Source of the DNA: Candidatus Aenigmatarchaeota archaeon
Lineage (GTDB): Archaea > Aenigmatarchaeota > Aenigmatarchaeia > CG10238-14 > SpSt-28
Reading direction: 5' to 3'
Assembly: GCA_018920305.1 (NCBI GenBank)
Contig: JAHLMO010000002.1
Coordinates: 7,580 to 71,579 of the forward strand
DNA length: 64,000 nucleotides
In this document: positions 187-63,032 of the stretch, piece by piece
How positions within the stretch are numbered: position 1 is the stretch's first letter
Layout: every line of letters begins with the position of its first letter
Program-made: the position numbers and the translations under genes
Notes under the pieces: model-generated
The model's input: the letters and a program-made list of their open reading frames with translations, nothing else
Told to the model about the DNA's origin: nothing
Databases searched by the model: none

Positions 187-1275
187 TTATCCTAGTAGGC
201 ATGTATTCCAACCACATTCTAAACAATTTAAACAATTTTCTCTAAAAACAATTAAATTACTTCCACAATTTGGGCATCTAAAAATTTTGTTTTCAATTTT
301 TTTCGAAAAATCTTTTTCTTCTAATGATTTTACTTCTACACTAAACGATTTTAGCATTTCTAATGTTTTTTCATTGTAAAAAATTTTTTTGATTGAATGT
401 TTAAATTTATATACAGGTAATTTTGAACATTCTCTAAATATTGTTATCCCTTTTAATCCTAGTTTATAAGCAAAATAAAATGCGTTTAAAATGTCTTTCC
501 AAGAAGTTTCAAAAGGCATATTTATAGTTTTACTTATTCCATTATCAACCCAAAAACTAAATTCGTATTGAGCCCTTAAATGATCTTGCCAAGAAATTTC
601 GTAAACAGTAACAAAATATTCTTTCATATCATTCGGAATTTCCTCAATATTTTGAATGCTTCCACTTTCTGAAATTTTTTTAATTACTTCTTCTTTATAT
701 AATCCTCTTTCTTTTAATTGAATTTCTAATTCATAATCGTACAAAGCTTTCATTTTCATGAATTTTTTGTTTACCATTTTTATCAAAAATTTTTCATCGT
801 ATAATATATCAAGTATTACTATTAACGCAACAACTCTTTCAAATAATTGTTTTGGTGTTTCAATTATTTTGCCATTTTCATCTCTTAATAAATATCTTGA
901 TGCAACAACTCTTAAAGCATTAATAGAGAATCTTCTATCGATTTCATCTAAAAATTCTTTATTTAATATTTTTTTCTTTTCTTCTCTTATTTTTTCTCTT
1001 TCTTTTCTATATAAAATAAAAGCTTTAGCAGTTTCATATAGATTATTTTCTATTAAAACTTGTTCTATAATGTCTTGAATTTCTTCTACATGCGGATATT
1101 TATCTTTAAATTTTTGAGATATTTTGTTCAATACTTGATTAAGTAAATTTTTTAATAAATTTTCTTCAAATTTATTACTTGCAATCAAAGCTTTTTTGAT
1201 TGCATTTTCAATTTTTTCTATTTTAAAATCTTGCAGATAATTTTCTCTTTTTATAACTTTTGAGGGTAAGTTCAT
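187..1275 (-). CDS. Ribonucleotide reductase-like protein (class II RNR remnant?). N-terminal ATP-cone and the RNR N-helical segment (RYLLRDENGK..ETP) are fused to the RNR C-terminal segment (VDNGISKTINMP..GLKGITIFR) and a CxxC..CxxC zinc ribbon. The catalytic barrel is absent.
   Basis: ATP-cone motif VIKRENYLQDFKIEKIENAIKKA; conserved RNR N- and C-terminal motifs. Length is 362 aa versus ~700+ aa for a full RNR large subunit. Confidence 0.5.
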   Translation of the reverse strand: MNLPSKVIKRENYLQDFKIEKIENAIKKALIASNKFEENLLKNLLNQVLNKISQKFKDKYPHVEEIQDIIEQVLIENNLYETAKAFILYRKEREKIREEKKKILNKEFLDEIDRRFSINALRVVASRYLLRDENGKIIETPKQLFERVVALIVILDILYDEKFLIKMVNKKFMKMKALYDYELEIQLKERGLYKEEVIKKISESGSIQNIEEIPNDMKEYFVTVYEISWQDHLRAQYEFSFWVDNGISKTINMPFETSWKDILNAFYFAYKLGLKGITIFRECSKLPVYKFKHSIKKIFYNEKTLEMLKSFSVEVKSLEEKDFSKKIENKIFRCPNCGSNLIVFRENCLNCLECGWNTCLLG

Positions 1276-25716: not shown

Positions 25717-25824
25717 TGGGCCGGGCGGGATTTGAACCCGCGACCTACGGGTTTCTTCATTATTCAGAGCTTTTAGTGTATTAAACTAAAAGCCCGCCGC
25801 TCTACCATGCTGAGCTACCGGCCC
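25717..25824 (-). tRNA. tRNA-Lys (anticodon UUU) with a ~34-nt intron at the canonical 37/38 position (approx. 25753..25786)
   Basis: GGGCCGGTAGCTCAGCATGGTAGAGCGGCGGG-CTTTTA-[intron]-A-CCCGTAGGTCGCGGGTTCAAATCCCGCCCGGCCCA. Exons resemble archaeal tRNA-Lys. Confidence 0.75.
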
Positions 25825-30159: not shown

Positions 30160-30259
<100 letters not shown>

Positions 30260-57343: not shown

Positions 57344-57619
57344 ATGGAGATTAAAATTTTAAAAGAAGAAGAAAATACTTTGTTAATAGAATTTGTTAAT
57401 GAGAGTGAAACATTTCTAAATCTTTTAAGAGAAGAATTGTGGAATGTTAAAGGAGTAATAGAAGCAGCTTATATAAGAGAACATCCCGAGCTTTCTAATC
57501 CAAAATTATGGATAAAAACAGAAAATATAAGTGCTAGAGAAGCATTAAAAAATGCTATTAATAACTTAATAGAAAGGTTTGAAAAACTTAGAGAAGGAGC
57601 ACGAAAAATAATAAAATAA
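57344..57619 (+). CDS. rpoL: RNA polymerase subunit Rpo11 (RpoL)
   Basis: 91 aa Rpb11-like. Confidence 0.65.
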   Translation: MEIKILKEEENTLLIEFVNESETFLNLLREELWNVKGVIEAAYIREHPELSNPKLWIKTENISAREALKNAINNLIERFEKLREGARKIIK

Positions 57620-57624
57620 AAATT

Positions 57625-58341
57625 CTAAACAACTCTTATAATTTTATAATTATATTTCCAGCAACCACTCTCATCATGATCACCACAATTGAGAGTTTCA
57701 GTAATATCAGTATTTCCCCAGTTACGAGAACCTAAACTAAGGCTTACAGAAGGTCTATTTTTATCTTCGTGTATAGCTCCATTTTTACAATATTTGTTTT
57801 GAGAAAAAAGATTTGAATATTCCTTATATCTAACTCTATCATCTTCAACATAATATTCTATTAACCTATCTCTGTTACATATTCCAGTACAATAATCTTC
57901 GTATCTATCTTCTCTACAAGCTCCACCACTACAATATCTATCTATAGCTGTTCCCTTTACATATGGATTATCTCCATCACTATCTGTAGACTCTCCACAA
58001 TATGTTGTAATATAATTTGCTGAACACCAACAAGTTGCACCATCGCTTTTGCATGATCTCTCTATATAACATCTATATTTATCCGCTCTTTGACCACAAC
58101 CACAAGTATATTCATCATTACATCGATAAAATATCGTTTCACACTCTAAACATTTTTTTTGCTCTGAATCATATTTTTTACACTGTCTTACATAATATCC
58201 ACCAGCAGTACAATAACAACCCGAACAATCATCTGATGAAGAGGAAGAAAACGAGTAAAGAAATGATATAGATAAAAAAATAGCACTAAAAAAGAAAAAT
58301 AATATCAATATTCTCTTATTCTCAAAAAGGACACCCTTCAT
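57625..58341 (-). CDS. Secreted/anchored cysteine-rich protein (238 aa; ~30 Cys)
   Basis: N-terminal signal/TM, then a Cys-dense, Lys-poor domain; overlaps the upstream large Cys-rich gene by 4 nt. Confidence 0.5.
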   Translation of the reverse strand: MKGVLFENKRILILFFFFSAIFLSISFLYSFSSSSSDDCSGCYCTAGGYYVRQCKKYDSEQKKCLECETIFYRCNDEYTCGCGQRADKYRCYIERSCKSDGATCWCSANYITTYCGESTDSDGDNPYVKGTAIDRYCSGGACREDRYEDYCTGICNRDRLIEYYVEDDRVRYKEYSNLFSQNKYCKNGAIHEDKNRPSVSLSLGSRNWGNTDITETLNCGDHDESGCWKYNYKIIRVV

Positions 58342-61298
58342 ATTAATTTAAATAATTTTAAACTTTTTATTAAGTTTTGAACTACCAGATTATGTATGAC
58401 TTCAAATATCGAACTTTTTTTACTTATTACTATTCCATTCATAAAATAAAATTCGTGATTAAACCAAATTTCAACTCTTACACCTTTATCTCTTGGATCA
58501 TACATTTTACAAATTATTCTATTTACTCCACTAAAATATCTTGGATTTTCTACAGAACAACTATTTATTGTTTCTCTTTCAGTATTTTGCGTACATGGGA
58601 AAGAATTTCCGCACTTACATTTTTGTCCGCTTTCTAAAATACAATTTCCGAATAATATATCATTTATAGTACAAGCATTTTTTCCATCTATAGTAGGATT
58701 AAGATAACATTCCATATTTAATTCTCTTTGTTCTCTTGCATACTCTGCTTCCCATATTACACTAAATCTTTTCTCAGTAGAAGGTAAAAACTGGAAACCA
58801 TCCCTTATATTTTTGGAAACTAAAAATGGTAAGTCAACTAAAATACCTGTATCGTTTTTTGAACAAACCGCTAACCTTCTTAAATCATTTGATCTTATAT
58901 TTTCCCATGCAATTACTATTCTATTACCATAATCCTTTATATACTGCGGATTTATTTTTGTGTTTGCTTCTAGATCTACAAAATCTTTAAAGTTATATAT
59001 CTTTACATTTCTTGGATTATTAGCTGGTCCAACCCATAAACAATCCGTAAATTCATCAGTTTTTCCAATGATATCTCTTATTTGTGTACATTTATTTCTA
59101 TATCCGAAACAATCTATTTCTTTATGATAATTTCCACCCAAACTATTTGTCTTACTTTTTACTTCGCTACTGGAATCCCAATAAGTTTTAAGAAAAACTA
59201 TCTTATCTGTTCCTCTTTGGTTTTGTTGATCTCCTCTTGCACCCAAAAATATATAAACTTGATAATTTGAATTAGAAGCAGAATTACCAGCTTGATCAGC
59301 TATATATGCGTATAACCTTCCCCATCCAATATCTAATCTTCCGAAGCTTGCTGTATGAGTTGCTGGTATCGGATATAATGCACCACCAGGACAGGAGGAA
59401 ACCGGAAAATTAGTCGATTTTGTTGATTCTGGAGATTTATCAAATCTTAGCGAGGAGAATCTTACACCGCTTATTTCTTGTCCATTATACTCATCTCTAC
59501 TTTTTGAAGTAAAGGTTATACTTTCCTTATCTATAACAACTTTATCTGGAGTAAGAGGAATTCTTCTTCCATCTTTATCTATGTAATAATTTGGAAACGG
59601 ATCATAAGTATAATCACCACTTGATATCAATTCAGGTCTATGTTGAATATCAACAAAGTATGGATTTCTCTTATCTATACAATAGTATCCGCTAGATATG
59701 ACACCACTCATCTTATCTGTATTATCACAAACAAAGATATCTTCAATTCTATATATACAAACTTCTCCAGGACTACACCTTAAATGAATATTTATTGATT
59801 CTGACGGACATCTAGAAGAAAATGTACCTAGCGCAATAGAACAATCAAGACCTTCTCCACAATTAACTGTTAATGTACTTTCTAGTTTGCTAGTTCCAAA
59901 AATAGCACTAAATGAATAACTTCCAGATCGTGTTGGAACGTTATAACTTCCACTACAACTTCCAACTAAGTTTGATCCCATAGATACAGGTATTCTACAT
60001 AATTCTGAACCATCTGGTCTTACAATTATTATATTCTTATTTTGGCAATTTCCAGAAGCAGAGTATCTTACCATCGCGTTTATATTTATTGTCTTTCCAC
60101 AATCAGTAGTACTTGAAGGCGAAATAGAAAAAGACTCTAAGCAAAGATAACAACCATCAGACCAACAACATACACCTCGACAAATAACTGTCAAGTTTGC
60201 TGATATTTTATTCTCTTCATAAACGGCATTAAAGGTATAGTTTCCAGACTGAGTTGGAACGTTATAACTTCCACTACAACTTCCGGCTTGATTCTCGCCT
60301 ATAGAGATTGGTATTTTACATAATTCTGAACCATCTGGTCTTAAAACTGTTATATTCTGATCTTGACAATCTCCAGATGCCGAATATTTTACTTCGGCTT
60401 TTATATCTATTGTATTTCCGCATCTATCAGTACTACTTGGATTTAAAGATAATGATTTCAAATCTACTTTACAACATTTAGCCTCTAATTCTGTAGTTAC
60501 TTCTAGGTTTTGGAGAACAGCCTTAAAAGTATACTCTCCAGCTTGATCAGGAACTTTATATTTTATATTACGTTTTCCTACTAAATTGTTTCCTACATTT
60601 GTTATTGGAATTTCACATACTTTATTAGAAAAATGATCCAAAACAGTTATGTTTTGATTGAGATAAGCTTCTGTAGCAGTATACTCTACGCTTATCTCTA
60701 TATCTATTTCTTCACCACATTTATCTGTGCTACTTGGATTAAGAGATATTGATTTTAACCCTGGACACTGTACTTTTATATTAAAATATTTTACTTGTCT
60801 ACTTTCTGGATATCTTAGTTGTCCATAAATGGCTCTAAAAGTATATTCTCCAGGGTAAGATGGAATATAATAGTCTTCAACACAACCTATTGTATGTTCT
60901 CTACCAGGTTCAACATCCTGAATATGCAGATTACAGAATACAGAACCATCTGGTCTAAACACTGTTATTATTTCTCCACGACAAACTTCAGAATTAGCTG
61001 TAAAATTAACTACTGCTCTTAAAGTATCGCTTCCTCCGCACTGGGAGAAAAACCTAGGAACTAGATAAAAATGATTAATATGTATAACACAACAAGGCTC
61101 TCTAGACCATCCAGATTCACAACAATAATAAGTTACGCCACCAAAAGTAGCGGAATCTCCTATTTTATAATCACATCCTTCTTTACAACAACTTTTCCAT
61201 ATGTCGCTTTTATCGCTAAAAGAAATATAGAAAAAATGTAGAGTTAAAAAAGAAATAAACACTAAAAAAATTGTAATTCTATGAATAATACTTACCAT
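58338..61298 (-). CDS. Large secreted cysteine-rich surface protein (986 aa) with 4 tandem ~95-aa Ig/CARDB-like repeats and a ~500-aa C-terminal domain of unknown function
   Basis: Signal/TM N-terminus. Repeats S.NPSSTD.CG..I.I...V.Y.ASG.C...NI.V.RPDGSELC.IP.S.G.N..GSCSGSYNVPT.SG.Y.F.A appear 3 times, plus a diverged first copy. Confidence 0.5.
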   Translation of the reverse strand: MVSIIHRITIFLVFISFLTLHFFYISFSDKSDIWKSCCKEGCDYKIGDSATFGGVTYYCCESGWSREPCCVIHINHFYLVPRFFSQCGGSDTLRAVVNFTANSEVCRGEIITVFRPDGSVFCNLHIQDVEPGREHTIGCVEDYYIPSYPGEYTFRAIYGQLRYPESRQVKYFNIKVQCPGLKSISLNPSSTDKCGEEIDIEISVEYTATEAYLNQNITVLDHFSNKVCEIPITNVGNNLVGKRNIKYKVPDQAGEYTFKAVLQNLEVTTELEAKCCKVDLKSLSLNPSSTDRCGNTIDIKAEVKYSASGDCQDQNITVLRPDGSELCKIPISIGENQAGSCSGSYNVPTQSGNYTFNAVYEENKISANLTVICRGVCCWSDGCYLCLESFSISPSSTTDCGKTININAMVRYSASGNCQNKNIIIVRPDGSELCRIPVSMGSNLVGSCSGSYNVPTRSGSYSFSAIFGTSKLESTLTVNCGEGLDCSIALGTFSSRCPSESINIHLRCSPGEVCIYRIEDIFVCDNTDKMSGVISSGYYCIDKRNPYFVDIQHRPELISSGDYTYDPFPNYYIDKDGRRIPLTPDKVVIDKESITFTSKSRDEYNGQEISGVRFSSLRFDKSPESTKSTNFPVSSCPGGALYPIPATHTASFGRLDIGWGRLYAYIADQAGNSASNSNYQVYIFLGARGDQQNQRGTDKIVFLKTYWDSSSEVKSKTNSLGGNYHKEIDCFGYRNKCTQIRDIIGKTDEFTDCLWVGPANNPRNVKIYNFKDFVDLEANTKINPQYIKDYGNRIVIAWENIRSNDLRRLAVCSKNDTGILVDLPFLVSKNIRDGFQFLPSTEKRFSVIWEAEYAREQRELNMECYLNPTIDGKNACTINDILFGNCILESGQKCKCGNSFPCTQNTERETINSCSVENPRYFSGVNRIICKMYDPRDKGVRVEIWFNHEFYFMNGIVISKKSSIFEVIHNLVVQNLIKSLKLFKLI

Positions 61299-61337: not shown

Positions 61338-62540
61338 TTAATCAAGTTTAAATCTACTAAATCCTCCTATTCCACCAAAAGATAAAAATTGCTGACCTTC
61401 AGAAGTTTGAGATGATACAATATAAACTTTTGTATTATATTTTTTTGCTGTTTCTAAGATTTTATCAAAATAATTATTAAAATCTTCTATTTCCATTTCT
61501 TTCCCACAAACATTGCATTTTTTATCTATTTTATCTAAAAAATTTTCTTCTTCTCTTACATTTCCACAACTTTTACAAAGCAATCTTATCTTTCCAAAGT
61601 TAAAATCTTCAGAAATTATTAATTCTTCTAAAGCTCCAATTTCTAAATATTTTAAAACCTCTGCAACACTATAAACAACGTTGTTTTGTAATTTACTAAT
61701 GGCTTCAAAAAATTTTTTCAAAATAATTTTTTCTCTAACTACTTCAGTTTTACTTAGTTCTTCTTCACTTCTATTAACTAACTCTTGCAGTCCATATTCA
61801 TTTGTATATCCAACATCTTTTACTGCAATTATCTTATCTCTTAATCTATAATCTAAATATTCATTTTTTACAAATTCTTCTTTTATTGGTCCTGGACCAC
61901 CAATTAAAATACCTTTTGCGTCATTCTGTAAAAATATTTGAGAAGCTTTTTCTCCAATCTCTTTAAGCCATTCCTCTAATGCTTGCTCCCTTATTCTTTT
62001 ATATCTCTGCTGACTCCATCCGCCTTTAACTGTTTTAGATGGTACGTTTGACTCGTCATTATATATAACTTCAATATTTTTACCTCTAAGAATTCCGATA
62101 GTAACTTCTTTAGAATCTAAAACTATTAATCCAAAAACTTCTTTTTCTTTTAATAATTCTTTTAATGGTTCAACTAAAAACTGATTATCACATCTATATA
62201 TTTTTAAATTTAAAGGTTCTGGAGGCTCTATTACCCAAACTTTAAATTCGTCTTTTCCTTTTCCAACATTTCCACTAAAAATTACTAGACCATTTTTTCC
62301 AACTTTGCCTACATTTCTTAGAGCATTTGCTACCCTTTCTAATGCATCTATTACGTTATTTCTAGTTGTATCGCTCTTAATATTTCTTGCTGTAGCTATT
62401 TCAGCAGAAATTTGTGCTATTGCAGAATTTATATCATAATTAGGGGGTAAATAATAGCTTATTAATTCTGTTTTTCTGCCTCTATAACTCTCTAGTTCTT
62501 TTACCAATTTTTTTAATTGTATTTTTTTCTCTTCCTCCAT
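61338..62540 (-). CDS. prf1: Peptide chain release factor aRF1 homologue (GGQ motif replaced by GGW)
   Basis: NIKS (ARNIKS) and YxCxxxF (YRCDNQF) present; the GGQ position reads KGGWSQQRY; C-terminal CxxC..CxxC insertion. Confidence 0.7.
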   Translation of the reverse strand: MEEEKKIQLKKLVKELESYRGRKTELISYYLPPNYDINSAIAQISAEIATARNIKSDTTRNNVIDALERVANALRNVGKVGKNGLVIFSGNVGKGKDEFKVWVIEPPEPLNLKIYRCDNQFLVEPLKELLKEKEVFGLIVLDSKEVTIGILRGKNIEVIYNDESNVPSKTVKGGWSQQRYKRIREQALEEWLKEIGEKASQIFLQNDAKGILIGGPGPIKEEFVKNEYLDYRLRDKIIAVKDVGYTNEYGLQELVNRSEEELSKTEVVREKIILKKFFEAISKLQNNVVYSVAEVLKYLEIGALEELIISEDFNFGKIRLLCKSCGNVREEENFLDKIDKKCNVCGKEMEIEDFNNYFDKILETAKKYNTKVYIVSSQTSEGQQFLSFGGIGGFSRFKLD

Positions 62541-62608: not shown

Positions 62609-62830
62609 ATGGCAAATAACAGACCTTTGGATGCTCTAGAGAAAGCAAAAGAAAAAAAGATAATAGTAAAACTTAAGAATGGAGAAGAAATAATAGGAAA
62701 CTTAAAAGCAGCTGATTTACATCTAAATCTTTGGCTTTATGATGTAGAAATATCTAATCAAAACGAAAGAAAAAAAGTTGAAGAGATATTAATAAGAGGC
62801 GATTCCATCAGCTATATAATAACAGCATAG
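62609..62830 (+). CDS. Sm-like archaeal protein (LSm)
   Basis: Sm1/Sm2 motifs (KLKNGEEIIGNL...ILIRGDSISYI). Confidence 0.85.
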   Translation: MANNRPLDALEKAKEKKIIVKLKNGEEIIGNLKAADLHLNLWLYDVEISNQNERKKVEEILIRGDSISYIITA

Positions 62831-62840
62831 ATAATTTAAT

Positions 62841-63032
62841 ATGACAAAAGGTACTCCATCTCTAGGTTTAAAAGCCAGAAAAGATTTACATATAAGATGT
62901 AGAAGATGTGGTCATTTTTCCTATCATGTAAGAAAAAAAAGATGCGCTTTTTGTGGATATCCAGATTCTAAATGGAGAAAATATAGTTGGCAAACAAAAA
63001 TAGGAAACAAAAAAAGAAGAAGATCTTATTAG
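62841..63032 (+). CDS. rpl37e: 50S ribosomal protein L37e
   Basis: MTKGTPSLGLKARKDLHIRCRRCG..C..CG zinc ribbon. Confidence 0.9.
   Translation: MTKGTPSLGLKARKDLHIRCRRCGHFSYHVRKKRCAFCGYPDSKWRKYSWQTKIGNKKRRRSY

What the first reader, a model, noticed from the sequence alone, without database searches (positions are those of the whole stretch)
62016..62024. aRF1 homologue with the catalytic GGQ replaced by GGW
The 400-aa protein (61338..62540, minus) is clearly eRF1/aRF1-family. The NIKS stop-codon-recognition motif (ARNIKS) and YxCxxxF (YRCDNQF) are intact. The segment that aligns to the universal peptidyl-tRNA hydrolysis motif reads TVKGGWSQQRYKRIR, where eRF1 has HGRGGQSALRFARLR. The DNA is ggc gga tgg (minus strand, 62016..62024), so it is not a single-base error from CAA or CAG. 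The Gln of GGQ is considered essential for release activity. A GGW variant could be an inactive or repurposed paralogue (Pelota/Dom34-like rescue role with retained NIKS), or could indicate altered termination chemistry. All three stop codons terminate conserved genes in this window, so there is no evidence of stop reassignment here.
Basis: partly seen in the sequence, partly recalled or inferred. Interest (0 to 1): 0.7.

Follow-up and report, generated by a model that had tools for sequence, protein, structure and literature searches.

The report
Archaeal release factor lacking catalytic glutamine
The gene that should end protein synthesis in this small archaeon has tryptophan where every textbook release factor has its "universally conserved" glutamine, and the same kind of swap (to Trp, Met or Phe) is fixed across whole related lineages, so it is a real natural variant and not an error.

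Summary
ORF 61338..62540 (-) is a full-length aRF1 (TIGR03676, 442.6 bits against a cut-off of 234.7). Its NIKS and YxCxxxF motifs are intact, and GGW (ggc gga tgg, 62024..62016) lies exactly where GGQ should be.

It is not an error and not private to this genome. All 22 closest database relatives (58-93% identity, labelled Aenigmatarchaeota) have GGW. More distant relatives have GGW, GGM or GGF, and rarely GGS or GGA. A second, separate GGW clade exists.

Only the Gln position changes. G173, G174, S176, R179 and R182 are invariant, and the loop is the best-conserved part of the protein. Non-Q forms almost always carry Gln two residues downstream (GGxSQ, 88% against 20%). Inteins sit exactly at this site.

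GGW, GGM and GGQ genes share a neighbourhood (TatD, LSm-L37e, RpoL). This argues that the GGW gene is the orthologous aRF1 and not a Pelota-like paralogue. Whole-genome copy number could not be checked.

All three stop codons are used in the window.

Best reading: a working release factor that does without the Gln side chain. I found no paper describing this.

The parts
61338..62540 (-). aRF1 gene (400 aa, ATG start, TAA stop). Domains: eRF1_1 residues 10-130, eRF1_2 residues 136-263, eRF1_3 residues 268-399.
   Evidence: ORF. Pfam PF03463/PF03464/PF03465. TIGR03676 equivalog at 442.6 bits against a cut-off of 234.7. AlphaFold model with pLDDT 87.8; its best PDB matches are aRF1 4af1 (E 1.8e-40) and eRF1 5lzt (TM 0.82).
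62010..62024 (-). Catalytic-loop motif G173-G174-W175-S176-Q177 (ggc gga tgg agt cag). W175 (62018..62016) replaces the GGQ glutamine. Q177 (62012..62010) is the Gln at +2.
   Evidence: Sequence. Alignment to GGQ of 4af1 and eRF1. G173, G174, S176, R179 and R182 are invariant in A1 and A2. W175 and Q177 are 100% conserved in the 23-member clade.
62373..62384 (-). NIKS stop-codon recognition motif (N53-S56; context TARNIKSD).
62178..62198 (-). YxCxxxF motif (Y115 R C D N Q F121).
   Evidence: Y115, C117 and F121 are invariant in A1 and A2.
62609..62830 (+). LSm (Sm-like) protein gene, transcribed divergently from aRF1. It is part of the conserved neighbourhood used as orthology evidence.
   Evidence: PF01423 at 63.5 bits. 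The same adjacency is seen in L081 (GGW) and L020 (GGQ), and within 8 kb in L084 (GGM).
62841..63032 (+). Ribosomal protein L37e gene, downstream of LSm.
   Evidence: PF01907 at 82 bits. Synteny as for LSm.
57344..57619 (+). RNA polymerase subunit L (Rpb11-like) gene, 3.7 kb from aRF1. It is also found near GGQ-type aRF1 in other archaea.
   Evidence: PF13656. tblastn hits next to aRF1 in L063, L014 and L021, all GGQ.

Best explanation
This is the organism's ordinary, orthologous class-I release factor (aRF1), from a low-GC archaeon related to genomes labelled Aenigmatarchaeota (DPANN). The glutamine of the GGQ motif has been replaced in evolution by tryptophan.

Proposed mechanism:
- The protein still reads UAA, UAG and UGA through its intact N domain.
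- It is presumably still delivered by aEF1-alpha through its intact C domain.
- It still inserts the tip of its M domain into the peptidyl-transferase centre.
- Hydrolysis is driven by the elements that remain invariant: the two glycines (loop conformation), the main-chain NH of residue 175 (water positioning), S176, and the rRNA-binding R179 and R182.
- The Gln side chain's packing role is taken over by a large polarizable side chain, W here and M or F in sister lineages. This side chain would fill or stack in the pocket that N5-methyl-Gln normally occupies.
- Gln177, two residues downstream (GGxSQ), may supply the amide that was lost.

Shown here: family membership, motif state, lineage-wide and repeated fixation, strong purifying selection on the loop, shared gene neighbourhood with GGQ orthologues, and use of all three stop codons.

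Inferred: retained catalytic activity, the packing or stacking role of W/M/F, the role of Q177, and sole-copy status.
For: Family and fold:
- aRF1 equivalog, three domains, NIKS and YxCxxxF intact.
- Confident aRF1/eRF1 fold.

Distribution:
- GGW is in all 22 closest homologues from independent assemblies.
- GGW, GGM or GGF is in 97 of the best 120 hits.
- Non-Q forms are 9 of 80 loci from species-representative genomes and about 20 of the 150 best 50%-identity cluster representatives.

Independent origin:
- A second GGW clade (P0152 and 10 relatives) has nearest relatives at 50% identity or less that carry GGQSSVRF.
- That clade sits on a housekeeping contig.

Selection on the loop:
- Only the Q position varies. 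G173, G174, S176, R179 and R182 are invariant.
- The loop block has conservation 0.94 against 0.83 for the whole protein in the window clade.
- Gly and Ser codons vary synonymously around a fixed TGG or ATG.
- Replacements are W (68), M (44), F (11), S (2) and A (2). Leu, Ile and Val never occur.
- Gln is at +2 in 112 of 127 non-Q forms against 37 of 185 GGQ forms. Tyr is at +5 in 83% against 21%.
- Inteins are inserted exactly at GGx|S in both Q and non-Q forms.

Orthology:
- TatD lies convergent downstream of aRF1 in GGW (L082), GGM (L084, L007) and GGQ (L012, L020, L022) loci.
- LSm-L37e and RpoL neighbourhoods are shared with GGQ loci.
- There is no second aRF1 or Pelota-like ORF in the 64-kb window or in any fetched locus.

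Code: all three stop codons are in use.

Literature:
- The main-chain amide of the Gln is the critical catalytic group. Q->P abolishes release. The side chain mainly packs the pocket and selects water (PMC4691834; PMC6742477).
- N5-methylation acts through van der Waals contacts with U2506, A2451 and A2452 (PMC5799190).
- The title of a paper listed in the references of PMC2613156 states that a human eRF1 Gln mutant does not completely lose activity.
Against: - No activity data exist for any of these proteins.
- Reviews state that mutating any GGQ residue is lethal or inactivating in model organisms (PMC9589212; PMC8131318).
- Sole-copy status is not shown.
- The +2 Gln cannot be essential. 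13 W/M sequences have neither Gln (GGWSA[NS], GGMSA), and some are 86-90% identical to GGWSQ forms.
- The backbone of the neighbour-joining tree is weak, so the number of independent origins (about 13 by parsimony) is uncertain.
- One apparent origin (P0237) is a single sequence in a mobile-element-like context.
Confidence: 0.6

Rival explanations
1. The GGW protein is a specialised paralogue, such as a regulator, a rescue or stalling factor, or a stop-codon binder without release activity. A canonical GGQ aRF1 elsewhere in the same genome does the real termination.
For: aRF1 paralogues are known in some archaea and ciliates (PMC2613156). Genomes labelled Aenigmatarchaeota carry either GGQ or non-Q forms in my sample, so co-occurrence is conceivable.
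Against: - No assembly appears twice among the 80 loci.
- GGW, GGM and GGQ genes occupy the same neighbourhood: TatD, LSm-L37e and RpoL.
- The equivalog-level score and full motif set are those of an orthologue.
- The loop is under stronger constraint than the rest of the protein.
- In the 42-50% identity band, non-Q clusters far outnumber GGQ clusters. That is not expected if every non-Q gene had a GGQ partner of the same lineage.
Confidence: 0.15
2. The protein is the sole aRF1 but is hydrolysis-dead or nearly so. It recognises stop codons and recruits recycling factors, and the peptide is freed by another route such as peptidyl-tRNA drop-off plus Pth2, another hydrolase, or slow spontaneous hydrolysis. 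Slow-growing episymbionts might tolerate this.
For: Textbook view that GGQ mutations inactivate release factors. DPANN-type genomes are strongly reduced. Loss of the side-chain carbonyl that helps coordinate the water (PMC5799190).
Against: - A dead loop should decay as in Pelota/Dom34 and the baeRF families (PMC6514570; PMC2613156). Here GG, S, R and R are invariant and loop length is fixed.
- The replacement is restricted to W, M or F and never includes the mutationally easier Leu.
- It recurs together with Gln at +2. This is the signature of selection for a function at the PTC.
- The main-chain amide, the critical catalytic group, is retained.
Confidence: 0.15
3. Sequencing or assembly error, or a recoding event, so that the real residue is Gln.
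For: None, beyond the general possibility in metagenome assemblies.
Against: - CAA or CAG to TGG needs at least two base changes.
- TGG is present in 11 independent loci with divergent flanking codons.
- More than 120 distinct proteins carry W, M or F.
- TGG also encodes the nearly invariant W102 of the same protein and 121 codons in window ORFs.
Confidence: 0.01

Closest known systems
Canonical aRF1/eRF1 class-I release factors (TIGR03676; PDB 4af1, 3agk, 1dt9, 5lzu)
   Same: Three-domain architecture and fold. NIKS and YxCxxxF stop-codon motifs. GG-x-S..R..R catalytic loop followed by a long helix. C-terminal domain with the Cys4 insertion and a GGIGG..R tail. Equivalog-level HMM score. Genomic neighbourhood shared with GGQ orthologues.
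   Different: The third motif residue is Trp here, and Met or Phe in relatives, where every described class-I release factor has Gln. The protein therefore cannot be a substrate for N5-glutamine methylation by Mtq2 at this position. Gln at +2 and Tyr at +5 are strongly enriched.
Pelota/Dom34 (TIGR00111)
   Same: Homologous M and C domains. Lacks the catalytic Gln.
   Different: Pelota has an Sm-like N domain without NIKS or YxCxxxF, and a truncated, poorly conserved loop (PMC2613156). The window protein has the full aRF1 N domain and a highly conserved full-length loop. Its Pelota HMM score is 66.7 against a cut-off of 177.65.
VLRF1-type release-factor homologues (aVLRF-1 and acVLRF-1; relatives of Vms1/ANKZF1)
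   Same: According to PMC6514570, these families carry a GGxSQ motif, with the conserved Gln two residues after the position it has in GGQ. GG[W/M/F]SQ here has the same pattern. PF18859 matches at 51 bits.
   Different: Those proteins are separate families with a different domain make-up and act in rescue and quality control, not in stop-codon termination. The NCBIfam acVLRF1 score here is 41.5 against a cut-off of 125, and the eRF1_2 match is far stronger. The resemblance is a motif-level parallel and not membership.
Laboratory Gln mutants of RF1, RF2 and eRF1 (Shaw & Green 2007; Seit-Nebi et al. 2000/2001; Santos et al. 2013), known to me through citing papers
   Same: They show that the side chain is not the main catalytic group. 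The main-chain amide is critical, Q->P kills activity, and the side chain packs the pocket and selects water. The title of a paper cited in PMC2613156 says a human eRF1 Gln mutant keeps some activity.
   Different: Those are engineered, generally unfit or lethal variants in model organisms. Here the replacement is the natural, fixed state of whole lineages. The primary papers were not available in the library.

Membership tests
aRF1/eRF1 class-I release factor (TIGR03676) | Family HMM above the curated cut-off, and three domains eRF1_1, eRF1_2 and eRF1_3 | tested here: met
   442.6 bits against 234.7. PF03463, PF03464 and PF03465 are all above cut-off. The fold matches 4af1 and eRF1.
aRF1/eRF1 class-I release factor (TIGR03676) | NIKS and YxCxxxF stop-codon recognition motifs | tested here: met
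   TARNIKSD and YRCDNQF. N53, K55, Y115, C117 and F121 are invariant.
aRF1/eRF1 class-I release factor (TIGR03676) | [quoted passage not shown] | tested here: not met
   GGW at residues 173-175. I therefore file it as an orthologue-derived variant and not as a canonical GGQ release factor.
aRF1/eRF1 class-I release factor (TIGR03676) | Orthology: the single aRF1 of the genome, in the ancestral locus | tested here: inconclusive
   The neighbourhood is shared with GGQ-type loci: TatD, LSm-L37e and RpoL. There is no second copy in the window or in any locus. Whole-genome copy number could not be obtained (truncated).
aRF1/eRF1 class-I release factor (TIGR03676) | Stop-codon-dependent peptidyl-tRNA hydrolysis | not testable with these tools
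   Needs biochemistry or genetics.
Pelota/Dom34 (TIGR00111) | Family HMM above cut-off, Sm-like N domain, and a truncated, unconserved M-domain tip | tested here: not met
   66.7 bits against 177.65. The aRF1 N domain with NIKS is present. The loop is full-length and is the most conserved block.
aVLRF-1/acVLRF-1 (GGxSQ release-factor homologues) | GGxSQ catalytic-loop motif | tested here: met
   GGWSQ at residues 173-177. The motif definition is from PMC6514570.
aVLRF-1/acVLRF-1 (GGxSQ release-factor homologues) | Family-specific HMM above cut-off as the best explanation of the region | tested here: not met
   NF041024 scores 41.5 against 125. PF18859 scores 51 bits but lies under a 126-bit eRF1_2 match.
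Mtq2-Trm112 substrate (N5-methyl-Gln of GGQ) | Gln at the third motif position to accept the methyl group | tested here: not met
   Trp at position 175. No Mtq2-like gene is in the window (the best methyltransferase scores 26.7 against 243 for PRK14968). The genome-wide presence of Mtq2 was not testable.

The most novel reading that the evidence does not exclude
Whole lineages of DPANN-type archaea terminate translation with a sole release factor that has abandoned the 'universal' catalytic glutamine. They would use an alternative catalytic-loop architecture, GG-[W/M/F]-S-Q. In it an aromatic or sulfur side chain stacks or packs in the peptidyl-transferase centre, acting as a genetically encoded stand-in for N5-methyl-glutamine and making Mtq2 dispensable. 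The amide is either supplied from position +2 or is not needed at all. This state would have evolved convergently several times.
Probability: 0.45. Interest if true: 0.9.

Novelty: new variant of a known kind. Interest (0 to 1): 0.8.

Why it matters
GGQ is described as universally conserved in class-I release factors of all three domains (PMC2613156, PMC8131318, PMC6144793, PMC9589212). What its glutamine side chain does has long been debated: coordinating the water, excluding other nucleophiles, or merely packing the pocket, with N5-methylation tuning it.

If the GGW, GGM and GGF proteins are the sole, working release factors of these archaea, nature has already run the mutagenesis experiment. 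In that case:
- The side-chain amide at this position is dispensable.
- Only W, M or F is accepted as a replacement.
- A Gln tends to appear at +2.

This gives concrete constructs for biochemistry, cryo-EM and molecular dynamics (GGWSQ, GGMSQ, GGFSQ, GGWSA). It also gives a testable genomic prediction: loss of Mtq2 in these lineages.

There are practical consequences too. Motif-based checks that call such genes 'inactive' would be wrong. The motif state may also be a useful lineage marker within Aenigmatarchaeota and related DPANN groups.

Tried and rejected
- **Paralogue or Pelota in the window or fetched loci.** None in 691 kb. This says little about whole genomes.
- **Mtq2/Trm112 loss hypothesis.** I could only look in the window. 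There is a TrmY and one generic class-I methyltransferase, neither of them Mtq2. The hypothesis remains untested.
- **Primary papers on Gln mutants.** Shaw & Green 2007, Seit-Nebi 2001, Frolova 1999 and Santos 2013 are not held in the library. I used citing papers instead.
- **Literature searches for prior description.** I tried GGQ+DPANN+aRF1, GGQ plus DPANN phylum names, GGW+GGQ+release factor, and GGQ+aRF1+metagenom. Nothing relevant was found. This library is not all of the literature.
- **'Shifted catalytic Gln' as a sufficient explanation.** Weakened, because 13 W/M sequences lack Gln at both positions.
- **P0237 as an independent cellular origin.** Set aside. It is an orphan sequence on a contig with an integrase, a recombinase and ORFans.
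- **Viral contigs.** There are only two aRF1-like genes, and both are GGQ.
- **Codon reassignment or sequencing error.** Rejected.

Full report
**Observation.** The window holds a 400-aa ORF at 61338..62540 on the minus strand. Pfam finds the three eRF1 domains. NCBIfam scores it as an aRF1 equivalog (TIGR03676, 442.6 bits, cut-off 234.7) and far below the Pelota cut-off (66.7 against 177.65). HMMER alignments to the solved structures aRF1 4af1 and mammalian eRF1 put GGW opposite GGQ without gaps and show NIKS and YxCxxxF intact. An AlphaFold model (pLDDT 87.8) has the loop-then-long-helix arrangement of the M domain. Its best PDB matches are 4af1 (E 1.8e-40) and ribosome-bound eRF1 (TM 0.82 to 5lzt).

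**Setting.** The window has 24.7% GC and 92% coding density under the standard code. Its 68 ORFs end in TAA (43), TAG (16) and TGA (9), so there is no sign of stop-codon reassignment. Neighbouring genes are archaeal housekeeping genes: LSm, L37e, RpoL, MCM, TBP and RNase HII. The region is syntenic with a 288-kb contig of an NCBI MAG labelled Aenigmatarchaeota, whose aRF1 is 83% identical and also GGW.

**Not an error and not private.**
- Of the best 120 homologues among 5.8 billion proteins, the 22 closest (58-93% identity) all have GGW. More distant ones have GGW, GGM or GGF, with one GGS and 23 GGQ. In total there are 51 W, 38 M, 8 F, 1 S and 23 Q after intein removal.
- Among the 150 best 50%-identity cluster representatives, about 20 are non-Q, including two GGA and a second GGS.
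- Among 80 aRF1 loci from species-representative genomes, 7 are GGW and 2 are GGM. Those that carry a taxon label are labelled Aenigmatarchaeota. Other MAGs with that label have GGQ.
- At the DNA level W is always TGG and M is always ATG, while the flanking Gly codons and even the Ser codon family (AGY/TCN) differ between loci.
- These samples were chosen by similarity to the query, so the fractions are not prevalences.

**What changes and what does not.**
- In alignments of 24 and 79 sequences, G173, G174, S176, R179 and R182 are invariant. Only position 175 switches.
- In the 23-member clade of the window protein, the block 164-185 is the most conserved part of the protein (0.94 against 0.83 overall). 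W175 and Q177 are at 100%.
- Across 312 aRF1 sequences the replacements are W (68), M (44), F (11), S (2) and A (2). Leu, Ile and Val are never seen, although Leu is the one-step mutational hub between Gln, Trp, Met and Phe codons.
- Non-Q forms have Gln at +2 (GGxSQ) in 112 of 127 cases, against 37 of 185 GGQ forms. They have Tyr at +5 in 83% against 21%.
- Thirteen W/M sequences have Ala at +2, and some are 86-90% identical to GGWSQ forms. The +2 Gln is therefore favoured but not indispensable.
- Many archaeal aRF1 genes, both Q and non-Q, carry an intein inserted exactly between the third motif residue and the invariant Ser (GGx|C...HN|S).

**Repeated origin.**
- A neighbour-joining tree places non-Q forms in three large clades: the window's W clade, a second W clade, and a mixed M/F/W clade. 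There are also scattered singletons. Parsimony gives about 13 Q/non-Q changes. The backbone of this tree is weak, so that number is soft.
- One further origin is well supported. P0152 and ten relatives all read KHTKGGWSQ[RK]RFER, while their nearest relatives (50% identity or less, one labelled Diapherotrites) read KHRAGGQSSVRFERL. P0152 lies among housekeeping genes. There both Q->W and S->Q at +2 arose again.
- Another apparent origin, P0237, is an orphan on a contig with an integrase, a recombinase and ORFans. I do not count it as a cellular lineage.

**Orthologue or paralogue?**
- No second aRF1 or Pelota-like ORF is present in the window or in any fetched locus. No assembly appears twice among the 80 genome loci.
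- More tellingly, a convergent TatD gene lies just downstream of aRF1 in GGW (L082), GGM (L084, L007) and GGQ (L012, L020, L022) loci.
- LSm-L37e lies next to aRF1 in the window and L081 (GGW), 1.8 kb away in L020 (GGQ), and 8 kb away in L084 (GGM).
- RpoL is near aRF1 in the window and in the GGQ loci L063, L014 and L021.
- This shared neighbourhood, with the equivalog score, argues that the non-Q genes are the orthologous aRF1.
- Whole-genome copy number could not be checked.

**Mechanism.** According to papers I could read:
- The main-chain amide of the GGQ glutamine is the critical catalytic group, and Q->P abolishes release.
- The two glycines adopt glycine-only torsions.
- The Gln side chain mainly packs the pocket so that water is selected (PMC4691834; PMC6742477).
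- N5-methylation stabilises the side chain by van der Waals contacts with U2506, A2451 and A2452, and its carbonyl helps hold the water (PMC5799190).
- In Haloferax the aRF1 Gln is methylated by Mtq2, and deleting mtq2 doubles the generation time (PMC6144793).

All the backbone-dependent elements are kept here. I therefore infer that the protein still catalyses release. W, M or F would provide the packing, or stack on a PTC base, in place of methyl-Gln. From my own knowledge, Met is roughly isosteric with the methylated side chain. Q177 may contribute the amide. [quoted passage not shown] That is a parallel in motif only, not membership. A corollary is that Mtq2 should be dispensable in these lineages. 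I could not test this. The window has only a TrmY and a generic methyltransferase.

**Rivals.**
- A specialised paralogue with a GGQ copy elsewhere (0.15) is not excluded, but it fits the synteny and conservation poorly.
- A sole but hydrolysis-dead factor (0.15) fits the textbook statement that GGQ mutations inactivate release factors. It does not fit the invariant loop, the restricted W/M/F choice, or the convergent +2 Gln. Inactive relatives such as Dom34 and most baeRF families show decayed loops of variable length.
- Error or recoding is rejected.

**Novelty.** Papers in the library call GGQ universally conserved in aRF1 and eRF1 (PMC2613156; PMC6144793; PMC9589212). The broad survey of the aeRF-1 superfamily treats classical aeRF-1 as GGQ. 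Four targeted full-text searches found no description of GGW, GGM or GGF aRF1. I rate it a new variant of a known kind. The gene is an aRF1 by descent, but it fails the family's hallmark catalytic motif.

**Limits.** There are no activity data and no whole-genome copy counts. The tree is distance-based only. The taxon labels are those of the depositors. The literature check is limited to the held library.

Noticed in passing
Homologues P0053, P0061, P0063, P0069, P0083, P0084, P0110, P0116, and P0122-P0235 (many): There is an intein insertion hot-spot in archaeal aRF1, exactly between the third residue of the GGQ-type motif and the invariant Ser (GGx|C...HN|S). It is seen in dozens of 50%-identity clusters, with inteins of about 130 to 580 aa, in both GGQ and GGW/GGM/GGF genes.
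   Followed up: partly
L085 340-1395 (JGI contig Ga0272442_10005311); also L086: P0237 is an orphan short aRF1 (351 aa, GGWSQ; nearest relative 56% identical and GGQSA). It lies among ORFans with a phage-type integrase and a recombinase. It may be a mobile-element or virus-borne release-factor gene.
   Followed up: partly
L088 5001-5855 (IMG/VR UViG_3300042261_001929, 77.9 kb); L089 23-316: Two contigs in the viral collection encode aRF1-like proteins, and both have canonical GGQ. One lies on a 78-kb viral contig.
   Followed up: no
Homologues P0006, P0008, P0010, P0012, P0014, P0021, P0022: Part of the window's GGW clade has NIKL in place of NIKS in the stop-codon recognition motif. PMC2613156 notes that the S of NIKS is sometimes L, N or D.
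   Followed up: no
window 58338-61298 (-): Directly downstream of aRF1 is a 986-aa Cys-rich protein with an N-terminal hydrophobic segment and internal ~95-aa repeats (LSLNPSSTD.CG...YNVPT.SG.Y.F). Pfam gives only sub-threshold Filamin and MG2 hits. It is probably a surface protein. The syntenic MAG has unrelated unannotated genes at this position.
   Followed up: no
window 25717-25824 (-) and 30160-30258 (+): Rfam finds five tRNAs but ARAGORN finds only three. The two extra matches are 108 and 99 nt long, so they are probably intron-containing archaeal tRNA genes.
   Followed up: no
L081 5834-9496 (-): In the syntenic Aenigmatarchaeota-labelled MAG, the gene next to L37e is an EF-2 of 1220 aa carrying an intein with a LAGLIDADG endonuclease. 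The window ends (64000) before the equivalent gene could be read in full.
   Followed up: no
window 187-1275 (-): A 362-aa ORF combines an ATP-cone, the RNR all-alpha domain, and only the last ~100 positions of the ribonucleotide reductase barrel model. It is a very short or fragmented RNR large subunit.
   Followed up: no
window 62010-62015 (-): Q177 and Q178 both use CAG, although CAA outnumbers CAG 300 to 42 in the window's ORFs.
   Followed up: no
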